A DNA stretch of 64,000 bases, taken from assembly GCA_013265495.1 (NCBI GenBank), contig MU058213.1, positions 4,030,001 to 4,094,000 of the forward strand, given 5' to 3'. This document shows, one piece after another, positions 860-57,300 of this stretch. The notes beneath the pieces are model-generated. The model did no database searches. It saw only the letters and a program-made list of their open reading frames with translations, and was not told the origin of the DNA. Made by a program: the position numbers and the translations under genes. Each line of letters begins with the position of its first letter. The first letter of the stretch is position 1. The stretch comes from Vicugna vicugna. Its lineage: Eukaryota.

Positions 860-3750
860 TAGTTTATTAATATGAACCAATGTATTGTGACAAGCTTGTA
901 TATTTTGATACCATTAAATCTACCTGACATAGATATCTGATAACAAAAAACATTAAAGGGAACATCAACATAAATGCCAAATAAAAATCATTTTAAAAAT
1001 CAGAAGCATTACAAATATTTGTTTAGAAGTTTTTCTTAATATGAAATTTGAAAAGTCACAACATATTAATTGCCCTGATAGTCTTTATTTTGCAACAAAT
1101 ATTTCAGACATAGAAATTTTTCTTTTATTTTTGCATTGATATAGTCAAGTTCTGAAGGATTGTCCAAAGACATCTTTAAGTTGGTATTACGTTACATGTT
1201 GCTTCATAGAAGCTCTTTTCCTTTTTTTGATGATAAAAATATTTTGTCTGCTTGCCCTGATTTTGGTCTTGCTGTTGCAATCGATAATTGCTTTTGCTAA
1301 TTTAGAATTGGTATTAGTTTCTGATCTCATTTCAGACTGTTCCACAACATTTACTTCTTTTTGCATTTCTTGTTAAAGGATTTGCAAAGAATAGCACCCT
1401 TTGGCAAATAACCATGTACTGGGAAACGCCACCAAATTCATTTGGTAGTATTTGAATAATGTTAAATTTCTATTTCGTATCAAGGGTAATAGCACCACAC
1501 AGAATCACAAGTCAAAACTGCTAATTTATGGAATTATTTTGCCTCCACAACATGTTATTTTTAGAATATCATTGATGGGATCTGCATAAAGTATCCTAAG
1601 TATATAAACCTATTAATATTTATTTTACTTATAAGAATGACTCACCGTTAGCAGCAGAGAGGGGCATGAATGCACATTTATAACATGGCAATAGCTACAA
1701 ATCAGTGATCAGATTGTGACCACTTCTCTTCTATGGGCTCCTGTTCTGGCTCCTAGAAATGATGACTTTACTCTTGGACTACACGTGTCAGCATCCTCTG
1801 CTCTTACTTCAGTGGATTCCTACAAAACAGCAATGGCTCTAAATTTATACTAAGCTTTAATCCTCACAGAGGAGTTACAACACCTTCTCCTGTTTCATCA
1901 ATTTCTTGACTGATTTGTTTTGAAATTCAGAAAAATATACGTTTCCCAAGAAATGCTGTGAAGGAATTTCCGCAGAGTAAACACTTTGGGGACTCTCCGT
2001 AACCTAAACTAGCGTATGATATGGCCATATTCTTAATTTAATTCAGCTTTCTTGTTTAGGCCTTCTTTTATTGGCAGCGGATGAAAAGCCTGGCCTCTTC
2101 TAACCCTGCAAGTATCTGAATTTTTGAACTTTTTCTATTCTCTTTTTTCCCATTTGCAATCTTACTGTTTTTCTCATCTTCATTCTTAAAGTACCTTGTC
2201 AAATGCAGCTAATATAGTAACCAAAATATGCTGTTAACATTCTGTTATCTAAATTCCTCCAAAAAAACAAAGTCAGTGTTAATCTAGTAAAAGTGAAACA
2301 CGCACAATTTTTTTTTTAGTGCTTACATACATACAAAAGTCCTATTACATTGAAGTCAGTACAAGCAAGTGGTCCTGGAGTAACAATTTTTGATGTAACA
2401 AAAATAACCATGTCAACCAAGAAATCAAAAAATGACATTACAGAAGCCTATAAAAATGTAATGATATTAAAACTTCTATAGTTAGTATATCTTTAAATCA
2501 CATGCTGTCTTTCCTATTAATAAAATATTCACTATCCCTCCTCAATTCCTCAATTTCTATTAATAAAAGAGACCAGTAGGTCCTTTTCTTTAGGTTAAGA
2601 GGTCCTCCATTCCATATGAATATAATCATTGTTGGAATAATAAATACTGTAAGTAGTACCATCAATGGGAGAGTTATTTGCAAAAACTGGTTTATTTTAA
2701 AAGGAATATTCAGTATAAATGCTGGGGATTATAGATACGATATAAAACACCCAACTTCAGAATCAGATCAAATTGGGTTCAAACCTTGGCTTTGCGACCT
2801 TAAGCAAATAACTGCCTAGATATTTGGTTTCCTTACCTTTCCACTTATAGCCAAAACAAGATGACTCATATTTTTCCAATTCCTTTTAAAAATATTTAGA
2901 ATAGTTCTTAAAATTTTTATAGAGTGAGAAAAATTCCAATTTCCTCCCTAAAACATTGGAAAGATGCAAAGGGGAAGAAATAACACAAATAAATATAGCA
3001 TTCAGATTTTCAATGTAAAATAAAAGAACATCCACAAAATGAATATAATACTTCTTAGTATCATTGAACTGCATTTATAATCAATCATAATTCTATGTTA
3101 GGTAACAGGGAACTAAAACATAGTGAAGAACCCTGGTAGTTCTCAGGCAGTCCCTACTGGCTTTCATAGTCATATCAAGAAAGTCTAAGCACTTGTGTAT
3201 TGGTTTGTTATGATTTCAAATCCAGTTGTTTATTATGACTTAAGTGAAGTTTTTATCTAAGGTTGAATTTACTTACATTGAGGAAGCTGTGCCAGGATGC
3301 ATCAACATGTTGTCGATACGTACTCAGTAGTTTAGCTGTTAAAGGGTACCGCTAGGGGCGCTAATCGATAGGAAGATATGGACAAGCAGTCAACATGTGA
3401 TGGACATTTAAACTTTAAATACCAAGAATTTGTGAGGACTTACCAAGAGTGTTTGGTTGGGGCAAGGCTACATTTTGCTGATTTAAATAGCTCTCTGAAG
3501 ACCTTGAGATAATTGCTCCTGCCGTGGCCAGGCCACTCTTGGTCCGCAGCAGTGTTAAAGCAGTCTTTGGAAGAGAAGGGACATCTGTCCCTGTCTTGGA
3601 GGCTACCCCTGGAAGGCAGTGGTGCAAGCCATATAATGGTCCCTGGACCAGTAACATTTGGGGCAGCCCAGCTAGCCTACCAACAGTGGTGCTGTCACCC
3701 CCTAGCAACATGCCCCAACAGCAAGGGACCTAAGCTGACAGCTGATACCC
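860..3750 (-). pseudogene. Candidate decayed multi-exon gene or spliced lncRNA downstream of ZNF280D
   Basis: Series of AG/GT-flanked blocks (3444-~3700, 3277-3360, 2837-2947, ~2327-2721, 1941-2208, 1646-1819, ~863-1595) with protein-like translations broken by stops and a frameshift; AATAAA at 863-868. Confidence 0.5.
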
Positions 3751-3996
3751 AGCTTTTAGCTGGAAGGACTGATTCTTCTGAGAACCAATTCATGGAAAGG
3801 TACATTTCAAATAAATAAACTTCTTTTATCTCCCCTTTGCCTGGAACAATAGCATAATCAATCTATTATTGGCTTGGAGTGTGTTATTTCTTTATTAGCT
3901 TATTAACAAACATTATCCTGCATGCTATTGGCTTGTGAAACATTATTATTATAGACTGTAATTCCCACAGTGAACCTATGTGAAATAAATTATTGG
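3694..3996 (-). promoter_or_regulatory. Putative promoter: RFX X-box-like site and three CCAAT boxes
   Basis: gtcaccccctagcaac at 3694-3709; attggc (GCCAAT on minus) at 3868, 3927 and 3992; adjoins a locally GC-richer segment at 3500-3750. Confidence 0.45.
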
Positions 3997-4052: not shown

Positions 4053-4257
4053 CAGATGTAAGCAAACTACAGTCCATGGGCCAAACCCAACCAACATTCT
4101 GTTTTTGTAAATAAAGTTTTATTGGAACACAAACACGCTATCGTTTACATATTGTCCATAGCTGCTTTCAAGCTATGAGGACGAGCTGGATAATTGTGAC
4201 CACACAGCCCACAATTACGTACTATCTGGCTCTACACAGAAAGTTTGCTGACGCCTG
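4053..4257 (+). mobile_element. MER58A-like hAT-Charlie non-autonomous element
   Basis: cag...gcaaactac start, core tttgtaaataaagttttattggaacac, end gtttgctgacgcctg; 8-bp TSD ctctaaag/ttctaaag. Confidence 0.85.
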
Positions 4258-5129
4258 TTCTAAAGCATTGCTACTCAACGGTTTGGTTTGTATTCCTCAA
4301 TTGTTTGTTCCTGATCAGAAATGAGATAAGGAGATTATGTGAAAACATAAAACAATTATGTTACCGAGTACAATGTTTATATCAATTTTTTGTTTTCATT
4401 GCTAGACTTTCTCAGTGAAGGATTTACAGTCTGGTATGGTTTCCTTTTCTCATAGTGGATGAGTATAAACAGTTCATTGATCAGGTATTTTGCATACCAC
4501 TACAGTAAGTATTTAGGAGCAGGAGAAGAAACTACTCAAAGCTCAAAAGGGATTATTGTATCACTTAGAGACATTTTGGCATAGTGCTCTAGGGTTTTGC
4601 AGCATTAGGTAGCAGGCTTGGCAACTAAATGAATAAGATTCAGGAAGTAGTCCATGCATAGACTCTTTTTCTCCCTGTCCTTCTAAGGTTTAACTTACTC
4701 AATAAATCTTCTCTGCTATAGATTTATGTTTCAACAAGATGAAGAATAACAGCTATTAAGTCCCTCTCTCCCTCCTTTCTTTAAAGTAGGAAAGATAAAA
4801 ATATTTGCTCCCCCACAAAAATATTCAAGAAAATAAGTCAATACTATATTTTGCCTAGTTAGCCTCTTTAATTTACTGAGCAGATAGAAAACTATATTAT
4901 ATTATAATTCTCTTTAAGTGGAAGAATTTATAAAGCAAATCTATTCTCTGTAAATAGCAACAGTTTTCCCCTAATACTTTCAACCCTAATTTAAAATAAA
5001 TCATGCATCATTTAAAGAATACAGAATGAAATTCTACCATTAACTTTAACATAAAATTTCCTTGAACAGGTGTACAATTTCTAAAAGTGCCAAAGGTAAT
5101 CTGATTCACACAGCTTTCTGAAAAATAAA

Positions 5130-6439
5130 ATTATTCAGGGACAGATTTTTATTGCAAATATTTACTCAAAAACTATGTACAGCAGAATTTTAATAGCCAT
5201 TTAAAACATTTAACATTCAGTGAAATGAAATTTAAGAATTCAAAGCACATTTTAAGAAGTAAAAATGTAGCATTTTAAATAAAAGTTTATTAGTACTTCA
5301 AAGCAAACTACTGTTACTCATATTATTCATTTCTGTATCTATTATTCTCTATATGATAAAAAACTGAAAAATCAATTTAGCAGCCATCTTATGGATAAAT
5401 TAGGCTAAATATCCCAAACCAATTTTTTACATCCTGCTTTAGGTCCCATTTGAAGTTTCTATTTTACAGTTACATAAAAAGTCACTTAAATATGGCTGAA
5501 TTCATGCCACGACATGTTTTCAGTTTACTGCTTTACAATATCTACATTATACCATACTTTGGTTTGGTTTCCAGACCATTTTTATGGGCCTAATTCTAAA
5601 GAAGATCATTAAAACAATACCAAAAGCATCATAGCTACAGGAGTTTCAACAATGGGTTTCTACTTTATACAACTAGTACATCAAGGGATTTCTGCACAGC
5701 TTACACACTGACAAAAAGCACAAATATAAATTTATATTTTAATAATTTCACTTTCACTGAAAGTTTAATTAAGGTAAGCTTACAGCCTGGCAGGCTAACA
5801 CTTGTTTGGAGGTACAAAGATTCAAATATTCTGTTTACATGCTTCTGGCAGTCTGGAATGTTATATTAAATCCAAAGTTAAGTTTGTGTTCATCCAAGTT
5901 CTTTTTAGATCAACAAATTTAGCACTCTAAGCATGCTCCATTTACCAGCTTCATACTCAAAATGAAGCTTTCATTAACAATGCCAATCAGCCATTATTTT
6001 AAATCAATTATTCCCCAAAGAGATGTAGTTTCCAAATCTCTTCCTTTAAGTTAATTGAAAAGGATGTACAGGTAATAAGGACTTTTAGCTTAGGAATGAT
6101 GGAAATTTCAAAAGCTTTATTACTATAACTAATAATCAATTCATACTGGAAACCAAGTTCTGTATCTTTGAAAAGCGCTAAATGAGACATTTTCTTTGCA
6201 AATTTAACTTTAAAATTCCATTCATGTTTTAAAAACTTCTTGGAAATTCACACTAATCATGCTATTAATGGTGAATTGATTTAACAACCTAGGTTGAACA
6301 TACAGGTAAAGTGTATGAATGACCTCCCTCACAGTTTTCCATCTCTGAACTTTGCAACAGCACCACTGAGCTCACCTGATAGCACTTTTCCAAATGCTCT
6401 CACCGTTGGTACACTAAAACTTAGAATGACTAATTAAGT
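5130..6439 (-). other. ZNF280D: ZNF280D 3' UTR (end approximate)
   Basis: AU-rich stretch with no recognisable repeats after the stop, ending near AATAAA signals. Confidence 0.7.
5148..5153 (-). terminator. Polyadenylation signal AATAAA (a second one at 5286-5291)
   Basis: tttatt on the plus strand; U-rich sequence follows on the minus strand. Confidence 0.65.
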
Positions 6440-7064
6440 TCAGCTCTTTTCTTTTTCGTCTGCCAGGTCTACTGTTGTCTCTGTTGTGCTAAGGCTATTT
6501 TCTCCAGGAATGCCATCTGTTTGATCAGACTCTACTTCATCAGTCTTGGCTGGAGGATCACCACTACTTTTCTGAAGAATCTCTGTGGCTTCGTACTCAA
6601 GTACCTCTGACGGAGTCAAAGGCTCCAAATGAATACTGCCTTGCTCACTGACATCAGAGCTAACAGATTCAGGTTCATCTCTTTTTCTCAAAAACTGGTC
6701 AATGCTGACATCACCAGATGTTAACCGCAAACCCTTAATATTCTTCGAAGAAAATCTGACTTCACCGGTGTTGCGCTCTTCAGTCTGATCACAGGAAACA
6801 ATGTTTTCTGAATTGTGGCACATCTTCAACTCTGTTTCCTGACAAATGTGCTCTATTTGTTTTTCCTTCTCCACTTTATCTGCACCAGTGACTGAATCAT
6901 AACTGAAGATATTCTTTGAGCCAGTTTCCTGGTCTCCAAGACAGGTATCATTTTCCTTATCTGAAACTGATACGCCTTCTTCATTTTTTGCTGCTGATGA
7001 GCCCGTAAATAAGTTTGCATCACATCCATTTTTTATTTCCTCTGAAGAAGCTTCATCTTGTTTA
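6440..7064 (-). CDS. ZNF280D: ZNF280D last coding exon, acidic C-terminus (KQDEA...SIHLEPLTPSEVLEYEATEIL...ADEKEKS*)
   Basis: Acceptor ttttttcag|T; contains ORF 6440-6874; TGA at 6440-6442. Confidence 0.96.
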
Positions 7065-9440
7065 CTGAAAAAATAAAGCCATTTATTATCTATTCCTTCA
7101 TTATATAATGTATTTGAACACTATCAAAACAAAGACATTCTCTAAAAAATTAAAAAAAAAAAAGTAAAGGCACATTTGCCCACCAAAAAGAAAAAAAATC
7201 TAAGTCCCCAGTCTTCTCCATGATGTTACAATTTAGGAGGCAACCATGATCTTATGCAAGAGAGAAACTCCATAGTCACAAATTAAAAAGAAACCTGAGG
7301 AGTCTGCTGATTGGTTTTAATCTTGGTTATCATTATTTTTATCTGTTCATACCCTTGCCTTTTTTAGCTAAAATGTAAATGTTCTTATTAATTTGTAAGA
7401 GAACTCTAAACAAGGAATGAATATATACAGAAAACCTATTTTTCTTTTACGATTTATATATCCTGTTAGGCTTAGAGTATCTTTCCCTATGCAAAAATCA
7501 TGTAACCAGTCACAAACATTTCCCCATTTTTCACAGCCTAATTTAAAAAAGCATAAACACACGCCTGAAAAAATATATGTAAATATAAAACATGCATACA
7601 TATGTCTATGCACATATGTGTCTGTGTTTACTCTTAACCTGGTGTGTTAACAGAAACTATTTAGTGAATCATAAAACATTAGAAACAGAAGATTTCTGAG
7701 GATCTCCAGCACCTTATGTAGATTTTGCTTATTTTAACAAAAAGAAATGTAATGATTACATCTATCTTATTTCTTACATTAATCCACCTGGAATTTAGAC
7801 TTTTTTCTAATGAGCTGCCCAAACATCAAAGCAACATTATCAGATGGTCATTTATTATTGGCTAAATTATATTATAAAGCTATTTCCCTGCTGTTCATTT
7901 CATTCTGATGTGTCTTTAGACTACCATGGGCCAATACCACCAAGTTTTGACAAGTATAGATTAACATTGTTCTTTATTATCTACTAGGTCAAATCACTTA
8001 CAGGCTACTATTCGTCTCCCTAAATTTTAGTTTGGAAATGTAAAAGATATTTGTACAAGAATGTTCATTAAAGCAATTTTTAAAACAGTGAATACAGAAA
8101 CAACCTAATATCTAACAAAAGAGCTGTGATGTTAGAAATTATAGTATTAATAAATAGAAACACATGAGTCTAATTTTAAACACTGCCAGTTTCCAAACCA
8201 AATCCAATTTGGATTTTCAACTAAATGTTCGTTAAATCATAAACTAATTTGGAAAATGAACTACCAAGTAAGTTATTAATATATTATTTTCCATCTCAGT
8301 AAATTTTGTTTTTCTTCTAAATCTTCTAAATAGATCTTGCACATTTCTCATTTTGTTATTATTGTGAATTAACTTTTTTATCCATTGTATTTTGTAATCA
8401 CATTATTGATATATCAGAAAGATTCTGAATTTTACACCAAGCTACTTTAATCAATATTCTCATTAATTTCAATCATTCTTAGCTTATTGTCTTGGATCTT
8501 ATAGGTCAATTACTACATCTGCAAAAAAATTATCTTCCCCTCATTTAAATTTGTAGAATTTTAATTTTTGTTCAGATCTTATGGAACTAACTACCATTTA
8601 CAGAAAATGTTAAATTTAGAGGTGACTAGACTGCTTCTTTTAAATCCTTAGTTGAACTTTCCCAACCAGAATTCTAGGAAAAATGCTAGGTGACGAAAGT
8701 GCTAAATAAATTTTTCTAGTGAAATCTAAGAAAAACATCTTCAAAATGTCTTATTCCATAATTTTCTTTTTAGGGGCAACAGATTAATTAATCTCATCAG
8801 GTTAACAAACAATTTATCATAAAATACACAGCATAAAGATAGAAATGCGGAAATTACTAAAAGGCAAAATCATCTTTACTTGGAATAGAGTTCTAATTAG
8901 AATGTTGGATTCTCTTTTGCCAAAAAAGGATTGTGAAGTATCTTGTGTTCTGTAGTGGTCTACTTGAGCGTTAATTTTTTTAAAAAAGCAATCCCTGAAT
9001 TTTGAAACTTCTATGTTGAGATCCCACCACAGACACAGCTTTATAGCTTATTGAAAATACTTAAAAATAAATAAAAATAAGATTTTTAAATTACCTATTT
9101 GCAATAATTGTCACCATCTTGTAACCTGTAGCATCTTGTAACTATTCTCATTTAATAGAGGCATTTAAAATCTGTTAACATTTTATTCACTTGTAAGACT
9201 TTTAAAAAATTTAATAACTGATCAAATGTACTCTACATGTTTAAAAGATTTCAAAACTAAGGATCTGCAGTATATTTTTGTTGTATTAAAATTTCAAAAT
9301 TTGATTTTAATTAAAAGCCATTACTAAAAGCAACACCATAAACAAAAGTTAAATAGCCCTTTGCCAATTAACTGAAATATGACACAGCTCAAGTATCATA
9401 TACATGAATTTCAAGAGATTCAGTTTTTCCTTATGTTTAC

Positions 9441-33545: not shown

Positions 33546-34629
33546 ATTGTACCTTTAAGGGTCTGAGAGGGTTTAAAATAATCTGGCTCAACCTCCTAAT
33601 CTTAGGATCAAAGAGGACCTCCTCCTGAAGCTGTTTAAGTGGAAAGTAAGACTTATAGAAAACACCTTAACAGATAACAAAAGGCTGAAAATAGTAATAG
33701 TCTCAAGAAAAGTAGGTAAGTGGGTAGACTGATAAGCTAAGCATAAGGAGTTACAGAGAGAAGCTAGAAATAAATGAGAGATTTTTAAGCTTCTTAGGGT
33801 GAAATCATGTAAAGTAACCATACCCTCCAATAACAAAAACAAAAAATCCCTTGCTGCTATAATCCGAGGCAGGATAAGCTAGTAACTTGTCTTTCCCTGT
33901 TATGCATTTATTAGATTTTTACAAACATAATAATAAGGGTATCTTGTAATTTCTAAAAATAATAAAATGGACACTTCTAGCATCTAGTTGTAAATTCCAC
34001 CTTACAAATGATTAATAAATATAAATGAAATGTCTAGGAATCCATCTTAGGCAAAATCTTACCCAATTACTTTTCATTTCCCAGTTCATAAAATCTGAAG
34101 AAGGATTACTCCAGATCAGTATTCTACACACTATTCTGTGGAGATTAAGAAGTTCTTAATTATTCAAAGAAAAAAAAATCTAAGGTCAAATATTCTCTTA
34201 GACATTCACAAACCACATACAGCATGAAAAATCCCACATTAAAGAACCAATTTAACTTAAACTTGCATTGCCTAAATTTATCCAGCCATGGAAACATTCT
34301 CCCCCAACTTATAAATTACGGACATTAGTTCTACAGTACTGAGTTTGCGGAAAGCTAACCTAGTTACCTTCTTTAACAGAAGGGTAAGAGAACTACTTTC
34401 ATGAGAGTATATGAAATAGTTAAATGTGCTGAGGAATAATGTGAACATTTTTCTCAAGGTCAAAGAGCCCCTGTTTCTGCTACTGGGGATAAGGATTGTG
34501 GCACCCTAAATTCATCTTGTCATAAGAACATGTTACGAATTATGGCATGTAAGTATAACCAATAAGGAATAACAGAATCCCAGAACTCCAGAATAAGTCA
34601 GCACTCACATTTTACAAACAGGGTAACTA

Positions 34630-51901: not shown

Positions 51902-52042
51902 CTCATCATATGATTCACATAGGCTTTGCTACAGCTAGTGTTGTATCTGCAAAAACTACAATGGACATATGTAGGAAAGTGGTTTGCAAAATCTTTTATT
52001 TCAGAACAACACTCAATGCACTTGTGAACTCCCCGACGATAC
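51902..52042 (-). CDS. ZNF280D: ZNF280D coding exon ([22 protein letters not shown]...[19 protein letters not shown])
   Basis: Acceptor ccataag|G, donor AG|gtaaga; 141 nt; phase 2 to 2. Confidence 0.96.
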
Positions 52043-52516: not shown

Positions 52517-52824
52517 CTTAAGTTCCTCAATGCTGTATTGACTTTACTTTTTTTATTGCTACTAGCCAATGTGCTTTGTTTCCTTTGCATATTAGAAATT
52601 TTTGATTTGTATTTAGATTTACTTCCATTAGGCTTACTTGCATTAGGTTTACTTGCAATGGGTTTAGCTGTATTAGGTTTACTTGTGATAGATCTTGTGG
52701 GACTTTTAGCAGTTATATTTTTAGTCCTTGGAGGTGAGAGCTGAAGGGTAGAAGTGCTTGCACTAATGGAAGGTGTAGTTGAAGATCCTGATTGAAGGGG
52801 TCCAACTGAAGCTCGAATAGTAAC
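52517..52824 (-). CDS. ZNF280D: ZNF280D coding exon (VTIRASVGPLQSG...SKPN repeats...NTALRNL), Ser/Lys-rich linker
   Basis: Acceptor ttttgtag|GTT, donor AG|gtaatc; 308 nt open; phase 0 to 2. Confidence 0.95.
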
Positions 52825-56199: not shown

Positions 56200-57300
56200 C
56201 ACAATCGCTCCCTAGTTACTGCATCATTTCATGGCTTTAAATATCATTTATCTAACTGCCCAGTTGACATTACTACTTGATGTCTAATACTCATCTCAAA
56301 CCAATATAGGCAAAACTGAATTTTGCATTTCTTCCCTACCTCCCTGCCCCCCCCCAAAATATGTTCCTTCCCCAGTCTTCACCATATGACAGTATATGAA
56401 AATTCTATTCTTGTAACTGCTTCGAAAAAAACTTCTCTCTCATATCCCGTATTGAAACCATTAATGAAACCTGGCAGCTCTACCTTCAAAAACTGTCATG
56501 ATATATTCACTTATTACCTCCAACGACTGCTACCATACGTGTCCAAGCCACTCACCTTGACTATAACCTCCTATCTTCTCCCTGTCATGTTCTTTCCTCC
56601 CTATGGCCTATTCTCCCCATAGCTGCCAGTGATCTTTCACATGCTTAAAATGCTGATGCGGAGGATGCTACAGCTTAGTGGTAGAGCACATGCTTAGCCT
56701 GCATGAGGTCCTGAGTTCAATCCCCAGTACCTCTATTAAATAAAATAAAATTTAAAAATAACACTAATTATCTTCCACCCACCAAAAAAAATGTTGATGG
56801 TTTTCCAAAGTCCTGAATCTGGTTTACAAGGCTCTCTATGAATTGGCCTGCATTCTATTGCTACAACCTTATGTCCTACTACTTTTCCTCTTTATACTTT
56901 ACTCTGCTCCCATTCTTTGAATGCCCAGGTATACATTCACTTCACTCCCTATATAACGTTACCTCTTCTAGATTTCCACATGGATTACCCCTTTATTTCC
57001 TTCAAAGAGGCCCTTTTTGACCACTATATATACAAAACAGCAACCATTTCTCCACTCCCACCATCTCCCCAATCCTTAGCAGTCCTCATCCTCCACATTT
57101 TCCTTCCACAGTACTTATCACCAGCCACAGTAAGATCACAGGATACATTCAAACATAAGCACACATGTATTTATTCTTTTTTCTCCACTATAATCCAAAT
57201 TTCACAGGACACAAATTTTGTATTGTTCACTGCAATATAGTACCTAAAAGAGTCCCTGGCACCTAGTAAGGCACTTAATAAATATTTGTTAAATAAATGG
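56200..57300 (+). mobile_element. L2a LINE fragment interrupted by the SINE at 56659-56787
   Basis: gacattactacttgatgtctaatactcatctcaaac ... cctggcacctagtaaggcacttaataaatatttgttaaataaatg. Confidence 0.75.
56659..56787 (+). mobile_element. tRNA-derived SINE, Vic-1-like (camelid)
   Basis: A box cagcttagtggtagagc, B box gagttcaatccc, tail ...ctaattatcttccaccc plus A-run; TSD aaaatgctgatg / aaaatgttgatg. Confidence 0.85.

What the first reader, a model, noticed from the sequence alone, without database searches (positions are those of the whole stretch)
860..3750. Hidden compact multi-exon unit just downstream of ZNF280D: candidate dead (unitary) gene, possibly testis/cilia-type
Seen: about 3 kb with no recognisable repeat carries a regular chain of minus-strand splice sites. 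Donors are TTG|gtaagt (3444), AAT|gtaagt (3277), AAG|gtaagg (2837), TAT|gtaagc (2327), AAC|gtatat (1941) and ACG|gtgagt (1646). Matching AG acceptors are at 3360, 2947, 2721, 2208, 1819 and 1595. Introns would be 83, 329, 115, 118, 121 and 50 nt, with AATAAA at 863-868. The blocks translate like decayed protein: RP*RYPLTAKLLSTYRQHVDASWHSFLN (3277-3360); an open GGNWNFSHSIKILRTILNIFKRNWKNMSHLVLAISGK (2837-2947); LHLTRYFKNEDEKNSK...ILAGLEEARLFIRCQ/fs/KEGLNKKAELN*EYGHIIR*FRLRRVPKVFTLRKFLHSISWE (1941-2208). Several stops are one C>T change from Gln or Arg. Inference: a once protein-coding gene now disabled, or persisting as a spliced lncRNA. I do not recognise the protein, the ancestral frame of some blocks is ambiguous, and the 50-nt last intron is too short to work as it stands.
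Basis: partly seen in the sequence, partly recalled or inferred. Interest (0 to 1): 0.75.

Follow-up and report, generated by a model that had tools for sequence, protein, structure and literature searches.

The report
Decayed orphan gene behind ZNF280D
Just behind the ZNF280D gene of this mammal, three to four short blocks with splice signals join into a stop-poor reading frame and keep arginine-type CpG codons, so they are likely the remains of an unidentified protein-coding gene that is probably broken now and possibly still transcribed, but no related protein and no spliced read was found.

Summary
All 12 splice sites and the quoted translations are at the stated places. Donor density and per-block stop counts match background, three sites score far below real ZNF280D sites, the chain as given is not one frame, and every stop codon is one C>T from Gln or Arg.

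Two new signals support a coding past. First, with acceptor 3335 instead of 3360, the frame from ATG 3711 stays open for 146 codons over three exons (conservative shuffle P 0.007-0.013). Second, 7 of 8 CpGs in blocks 3277-3360 and 1941-2208 are Arg codons in the proposed frames (P 0.009, or 0.058 with frames free). Upstream AGs favour 3360, which closes the frame at codon 98.

No homologue was found. The HMMER search would catch an annotated relative at 60% identity or more. Four reproductive-system RNA runs hold a third of the stretch; junctions are untested. The scan has no look-alike elsewhere.

Best reading: a disabled orphan gene (0.5). Rivals: chance or read-through (0.28), an intact short protein (0.17).

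The parts
6440..7066 (-). ZNF280D last coding exon (neighbour, not part of the unit); 3' UTR probably runs to the AATAAA at 5153
   Evidence: 84% identity over 208 aa to hippopotamus ZNF280D
4075..4262 (.). Short DNA-transposon-like insertion (resembles MER58; name recalled) between ZNF280D and the unit; CpG O/E 0.63
   Evidence: identity recalled, not tested
3701..3711 (-). ATG at 3711 (G at -3), overlapping an RFX X-box-like half site at 3709-3701
   Evidence: half-site pattern recalled; 3 matches on the two strands of the window
3444..3711 (-). Exon 1 candidate, GC 53%, open frame of 89 codons ending in phase 1 at donor 3444 (8.5 bits). It may be split by a 72- or 90-nt intron (donors 3681 or 3699 to acceptor 3608, 13.1 bits) that keeps the same frame
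3277..3360 (-). Exon 2 candidate, donor 7.5 bits. Acceptor 3360 (4.0 bits, no AG within 54 nt upstream) or 3335 (6.5 bits, AGs at 3352 and 3361 upstream). 4 CpG, 3 of them Arg codons; one TAG at 3354
2837..2947 (-). Exon 3 candidate, 111 nt, phase 0-0, open; donor 11.7 bits (top 0.2% of GT sites), acceptor 6.1
   Evidence: 3 such donors in 128 kb of strand at thresholds set on this block, one a true ZNF280D exon
2327..2721 (-). Doubtful block. In phase with exon 3 it gives a stop after 3 codons, with AATAAA at 2696 (possible terminal exon or UTR). Another frame is open for 73 codons with a hydrophobic 19-mer. A 48-nt sub-block 2374-2327 would keep phase 0 with two stops
   Evidence: hydrophobicity reached by 4.5% of 134 background ORFs
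1941..2208 (-). Exon 5 candidate: weak acceptor (0.1 bits), open for 46 codons in phase 0 to a TAA at 2070-2068 that overlaps AATAAA (2072). A second frame 2068-1941 has 2 stops and 3 CGN Arg codons, read as the old C-terminus behind a frameshift
1646..1819 (-). Block with strong sites (8.7 and 10.7 bits) but fed by a very weak donor (1941) and out of phase with the preceding frame; unsupported as coding
860..1595 (-).

Best explanation
The stretch 3711-1941 is likely the remnant of a small, compact, intron-containing protein-coding gene lying in tandem just behind ZNF280D, probably disabled now by a frame shift near the end of exon 1, nonsense codons and a second frame shift in the last exon, and possibly still transcribed. 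Shown: the splice signals, the open frame across exons 1-3 (and 5a), the CpG/Arg pattern and the stops. Inferred: that these reflect past selection on a protein; that the spliceosome uses acceptor 3360 (first AG after the branch-like TTGAC at 3393), which closes the frame at codon 98 and would make any RNA effectively non-coding; and that the gene evolves fast or is unannotated elsewhere, since no relative at 60% identity or more is on record. The open pieces would encode a basic protein (pI about 10, no membrane segment), which fits but does not prove a germ-cell role.
For: (1) With the best-scoring acceptors (3335, 2947) the frame from ATG 3711 is open for 146 codons. 0 of 5000 dinucleotide shuffles reach that length, and 1.3% give any ATG frame through exon 3. 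With exon 3608-3444, 0.66% of 10000 shuffles give an open chain with any of 3 acceptors and 3 frames allowed. It is the only locus of 100 codons or more on either strand at 3 of the 4 threshold sets that asked for 100 codons, with one other locus at the loosest. (2) Blocks 3277-3360 and 1941-2208 hold 8 CpG in 352 nt (O/E 0.56) against 0.14 in the rest of 1596-3750 and 0.155 in the window. They are 2 of only 4 CpG-dense patches in 64 kb; the others are the ZNF280D last exon and the repeat at 4120-4281. (3) 7 of those 8 CpG are CGN Arg codons in the proposed frames (P 0.009 with frames fixed). 1 of 37 background windows with 3 or more CpG has 3 in one phase. (4) Two of these Arg codons (3360, 3351) lie upstream of 3335, which points to an old exon start at 3360 in the same frame, now cut by TAG 3354. 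(5) 7 of 7 true ZNF280D acceptors have no AG closer than 26 nt upstream; 3335 has one at 18 nt and 3360 none before 54 nt (first-AG rule from passages of PMC9284458). (6) 4 RNA runs from 2 studies hold 0.32-0.36 of 319 sampled words, against 0.88-0.99 in 14 DNA-type runs.
Against: No homologue: HMMER over 1.84 billion representatives, 0 hits at E<=0.001; word searches 0; ESM Atlas 0; Pfam 0 credible; PDB only three hits at E 0.27-0.71; metagenome and viral scans 0. Retained CpGs suggest a recent loss, which should leave annotated orthologues within reach (100 of 100 simulated relatives found at 60% identity, 73 at 50%, 21 at 40%). With all frames free the CpG-phase P is 0.058. A non-coding repeat nearby also keeps CpG (O/E 0.63). 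Thresholds and tests were chosen after seeing the data, and comparable donor-exon chains occur at 2 other loci of the window. Donor density and per-block stop counts are at background. The amino-acid composition test was negative for 8 of 8 blocks, but passed only 2 of 8 true ZNF280D exons. The RNA share fits an unspliced read-through about as well (0.40) as spliced models (0.32-0.34). No junction was observed.
Confidence: 0.5

Rival explanations
1. No coding past: ordinary AT-rich DNA behind ZNF280D, covered in RNA by read-through or by a plain lncRNA, in which splice-like words and open frames coincide by chance.
For: Donor density and stop counts at background. Two other loci give similar donor-exon chains. 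All homology searches are empty. Unspliced read-through to AATAAA 2696 predicts a word share of 0.40 against 0.32-0.36 seen. Several tests were tried post hoc.
Against: Two largely independent signals meet in the same frames: the open three-exon frame (P 0.007-0.013) and CpG in Arg position (P 0.009). CpG excess is confined to the blocks and absent from the DNA between them. ATG 3711 is also in phase with two further donors and the region's strongest acceptor.
Confidence: 0.28
2. A living, lineage-restricted or very fast-evolving gene. Splicing 3444 to 3335, 3277 to 2947 and 2837 to 2721 or 2208 would give an intact basic protein of 149 or 192 residues, a truncated descendant of a longer ancestor.
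For: The frame is open from ATG 3711 for 149 codons (via 2721, AATAAA 25 nt into that exon) or 192 codons (via 2208, stop overlapping AATAAA 2072). 3335 outscores 3360 in the matrix (6.5 against 4.0). Two such transcript models predict shares of 0.32 and 0.34, as seen. The positive-control search showed no ZNF280D above 83% identity, so proteins of the window's own lineage may be missing from the database.
Against: AGs at 3352 and 3361 precede 3335, unlike 7 of 7 true acceptors. Acceptor 2208 scores 0.1 bits. The shortest models predict shares of only 0.13 and 0.17. No orthologue at 60% identity or more is on record. A rescue AG in the right phase has a fair chance of existing in a dead exon (inference).
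Confidence: 0.17
3. Part of the unit, above all the GC-rich block 3444-3750, is an old transposon or LTR remnant whose internal splice signals were co-opted.
For: The block is GC-rich (53%) but CpG-poor (O/E 0.09) with raised TpG/CpA (1.39) and has long frames on both strands. A repeat-like insertion lies 300 nt away.
Against: No transposase, RT or other Pfam match in six read-through frames, no viral match, no tandem or long internal repeat.
Confidence: 0.05

Closest known systems
[quoted passage not shown]
   Same: Intron-containing unit at an intergenic site, with nonsense and frame lesions and possible residual transcription.
   Different: Those cases are defined by an intact syntenic orthologue in another species; none is found here. 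The locus is not among the 29 chr15 rows of the Hezroni candidate table, and ZNF280D and MNS1 do not occur in either paper's searched supplements.
Lineage-restricted (orphan) or de novo small genes of mammalian reproductive tissue (class recalled, not looked up)
   Same: Short introns, short basic predicted product, no detectable homologue, RNA signal in reproductive-system samples.
   Different: Arg-type CpG codons beyond the present stop and upstream of acceptor 3335 suggest decay from a longer frame rather than birth. Translation is not shown.
RFX-regulated cilia and spermatid genes (PMC4498915, 12 passages seen)
   Same: An X-box-like half site close to the presumed start of the unit; the paper reports RFX2 sites close to the TSS.
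   Different: Only a half site of a recalled pattern, not the 14-bp inverted repeat the paper describes; no TSS is known.

Membership tests
Unitary pseudogene | Exon-intron structure kept (not a processed copy) | tested here: inconclusive
   Donors 3444, 3277 and 2837 and acceptors 3608 and 2947 lie within the range of true ZNF280D sites and join in frame; no spliced read was seen.
Unitary pseudogene | Recognisable coding past | tested here: met
   Open spliced frame P 0.007-0.013 and CGN phase P 0.009 (0.058 with frames free); statistical only, post hoc.
Unitary pseudogene | Disabling lesions in the frame actually spliced | tested here: inconclusive
   Stop at codon 98 with acceptor 3360, none for 146 codons with 3335; the AG rule favours 3360.
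Unitary pseudogene | Intact syntenic orthologue in another lineage | tested here: inconclusive
   0 hits. These exclude annotated relatives at about 60% identity or more for exons 3 and 5b, not distant or unannotated ones. Exons 1 and 2 were not put through the large protein searches. No vertebrate genomes could be searched.
Unitary pseudogene | No functional paralogue in the same genome | not testable with these tools
   No genome is held for this window.
Spliced lncRNA | Spliced, stranded RNA from the unit | tested here: inconclusive
   4 RNA runs hold 0.32-0.36 of the words; no reads were laid.
ZNF280D alternative 3' exons | Blocks occur in ZNF280D protein isoforms | tested here: not met
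   0 tblastn hits below position 6400 for the 18 proteins.
RFX target (testis/cilia gene) | Full X-box at a TSS and testis or ciliated-cell expression | tested here: inconclusive
   Half site at 3709; the full pattern has 0 matches in the window; tissue known only as 'reproductive system'.
Transposon remnant | Match to a repeat consensus | not testable with these tools
   No repeat library on hand; Pfam six-frame scan empty.

The most novel reading that the evidence does not exclude
An unannotated mammalian gene with no known relative sits between ZNF280D and its downstream neighbour. It is either still alive here as a 149-192-residue basic reproductive-tissue protein, rescued by a shifted splice acceptor that skips both a frame shift and a stop, or intact in other mammals and missing from all protein catalogues.
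Probability: 0.17. Interest if true: 0.7.

Novelty: new member of a known kind. Interest (0 to 1): 0.4.

Why it matters
If the coding past is real, this is a mammalian gene that protein catalogues and the gene-loss tables searched here do not list. One look at a multi-species alignment and one RT-PCR would identify it and date its loss. If acceptor 3335 is used, it is an uncatalogued living protein and an example of splice-site shift rescuing a dying gene. If it is chance, it shows how easily such chains are read into AT-rich DNA. As a class, dead or orphan genes are well known, so surprise is moderate.

Tried and rejected
Read-level test of the junctions: nothing was laid, so strand, splicing and the choice between 3360 and 3335 stay open. 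Own-genome search: no genome held.

Homology, all empty: (one RnlA_toxin match at 14.3 bits against a cut-off of 27, rejected). One search gave three PTPRN chains at E 0.27-0.71 across exon and intron letters, rejected. Rfam gave only a tRNA-like SINE head at 56664.

The 76-codon frame in 2498-2728 is ordinary (81 frames of 70 codons or more in 7000-64000). A membrane-protein reading through that frame was considered (phase-1 chain from 3608, 10 stops in 341 codons, P 0.003 by shuffle and 0.012 by sliding). It was ranked lower because it puts exons 2 and 3 in frames with 3 stops and no Arg-type CpG, and HMMER and the Atlas found nothing for it.

Literature: 10 searches, none listing a paper on a gene at this spot. 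bioRxiv 2024.03.17.585361 (one passage) concerns a provirus on the other side of ZNF280D. PMC6886504: 7 of 9 supplement files searched, 0 hits; the 8-MB Data S6 file was not searched and the coordinate terms may not match its format. PMC5577775 file 3: no row at recalled human coordinates. PMC5838959: two passages, no usable consensus. The recalled human lncRNA names RP11-1129I3.1 and ENSG00000260392 gave no paper; AC090515.2 gave 5 listings that were not read.

Full report
Context. The window is mammalian and holds the 3' part of ZNF280D on the minus strand. A hippopotamus ZNF280D protein maps in 11 pieces from 62086 to 6443. The best hits of a 46-residue piece are hippopotamus and whales at 80-83% and deer and goat at 74-75%, which suggests an even-toed ungulate. 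A tRNA-derived SINE at about 56660-56790 resembles the camelid type (recalled, not tested). The finding starts about 1.4 kb behind the likely ZNF280D poly(A) signal at 5153.

Observation. All 12 sites, the intron lengths, AATAAA 863-868 and the quoted peptides are as stated. The arguments built on them do not hold. With a recalled position-weight matrix, the donor count in 1600-3500 is reached by 20-47% of 132 background windows. Donor 1941 and acceptors 2208 and 1595 score 0.1-0.7 bits, where true ZNF280D sites score 4.7-11.8. None of 8 blocks is stop-poor for its length and GC. Every stop codon is one C>T from a Gln or Arg codon, so that remark is empty.

First new signal: an open spliced frame. 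The best-scoring usable acceptor after donor 3444 is 3335, not 3360. With it, the frame from ATG 3711 runs through 3711-3444, 3335-3277 and 2947-2837 for 146 codons without a stop. None of 5000 dinucleotide shuffles reached that length, and 1.3% gave any ATG-led frame through the third exon. Starting from the strongest acceptor of the region, 3608, 0.66% of 10000 shuffles gave an open chain when three acceptors and three frames were allowed. A search of both strands for ATG-led three-exon chains of 100 codons or more found only this locus at three threshold sets and one other locus at the loosest. The same ATG is in phase with donors 3699 and 3681 and acceptor 3608, so exon 1 may itself be two exons in the same frame. 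After 2837 the frame ends at codon 149 via 2721 or at codon 192 via 2208, each close to an AATAAA. These thresholds were set after seeing the data, and chains of comparable donor strength exist at two other loci, so the P values are optimistic by at least a factor of three.

Second new signal: CpG in Arg codons. The window is CpG-depleted (O/E 0.155). Only four patches hold 4 or more CpG per 100 nt: blocks 3277-3360 and about 1915-2039, the ZNF280D last exon, and a repeat-like stretch at 4120-4281. Blocks 3277-3360 and 1941-2208 together have O/E 0.56, the rest of 1596-3750 has 0.14. Seven of their 8 CpG are CGN codons in the proposed frames, against 8 of 18 in ZNF280D exons. The shuffle P is 0.009 with the frames of exon 2 and 5a fixed by the open chain, and 0.058 with all frames free. 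Selection on Arg codons is the simplest cause (inference). The CpG-rich repeat nearby shows that density alone can arise without coding.

Dead or alive. Two of the Arg codons (3360, 3351) lie upstream of 3335, and three lie beyond the stop at 2070-2068 in a shifted frame with two further stops. This suggests a longer ancestral frame that began exon 2 at 3360 and continued to at least 1941. The first AG after the branch point is normally used (PMC9284458, passages). Acceptor 3335 has AGs at 3352 and 3361 behind a branch-like word at 3393, whereas 7 of 7 true ZNF280D acceptors have no AG within 25 nt. With 3360 the frame from 3711 closes at codon 98. I therefore rank 'disabled' above 'alive', but the choice rests on a rule, not on reads.

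Homology. A read-through of the frame that holds exon 3, the open frame of 2327-2719 and 2068-1941 found 0 of 1.84 billion representatives at E<=0.001. In simulation that search found 100 of 100 relatives at 60% identity, 73 at 50% and 21 at 40% when both exons were present. Word searches with 1941-2068 and 2071-2208 scored none of 1 and 11 candidates. A matched control from ZNF280D found 18 proteins, all at 67-83% identity. So the database holds mammalian proteins, the word search reaches only about 70%, and proteins of the window's own lineage did not show. The Atlas, Pfam, PDB, metagenome and viral contigs and the scan's earlier notes gave nothing credible. Exons 1 and 2 went only through Pfam, PDB and the notes. 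The absence of annotated orthologues conflicts with the recent loss that surviving CpG would imply. A fast-evolving or unannotated gene would reconcile the two (inference).

Expression. Of 24 listed runs, 14 DNA-type runs hold 0.88-0.99 of 319 sampled words of 860-3900. Four RNA runs labelled reproductive system, from two studies, hold 0.32-0.36. The near-equal shares suggest a defined transcript (inference), but an RNA run can hold DNA. No reads were laid, so strand and junctions are unknown. The testis or cilia label has only this and an X-box-like half site at 3709 (pattern recalled) behind it.

Comparison with what is known. It works like a unitary pseudogene or a lncRNA left by a lost gene (PMC5577775, abstract), but the defining orthologue is missing, so membership is not shown. 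It is not a ZNF280D isoform on record. Ten literature searches and supplement searches in three papers named no gene at this spot; one large supplement file was not searched.

Verdict. Disabled orphan gene 0.50, chance or read-through 0.28, living short protein 0.17, repeat origin 0.05. Interest 0.4: a known kind of object, unidentified, and cheap to settle with one alignment and one RT-PCR.

Noticed in passing
window 4075-4262: Repeat-like insertion (resembles MER58, recalled) that keeps 5 CpG (O/E 0.63), one of four CpG-dense patches in the window; may mark low germline methylation near a promoter. An ATG at 4077 is in frame with donors 4020 and 4012 and the exon-1 frame.
   Followed up: partly
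window 33666-34609, minus strand: A second chain of strong donors inside a ZNF280D intron gives ATG-led open frames of 86-107 codons at looser thresholds; none of the 18 ZNF280D-type proteins maps there. Probably chance, and a measure of the background.
   Followed up: partly
window 51902-52042: A zinc-finger exon with a strong donor (10.6 bits) is not among the pieces hit by the hippopotamus isoform X3, which suggests alternative splicing of ZNF280D.
   Followed up: no
window 56660-56790: tRNA-derived SINE (Rfam tRNA 33.8 bits), not a tRNA gene; resembles the camelid type (recalled).
   Followed up: partly
window 2501-2719, minus strand: 73-codon open frame with a hydrophobic 19-mer (KD 2.68; reached by 4.5% of 134 background ORFs of 60-90 codons); out of phase with exon 3 in the preferred frame, unexplained.
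   Followed up: partly
window 52613-52685: 15-nt tandem repeat (4.9 copies) inside a ZNF280D coding exon, encoding a short Lys/Pro/Asn repeat.
   Followed up: no
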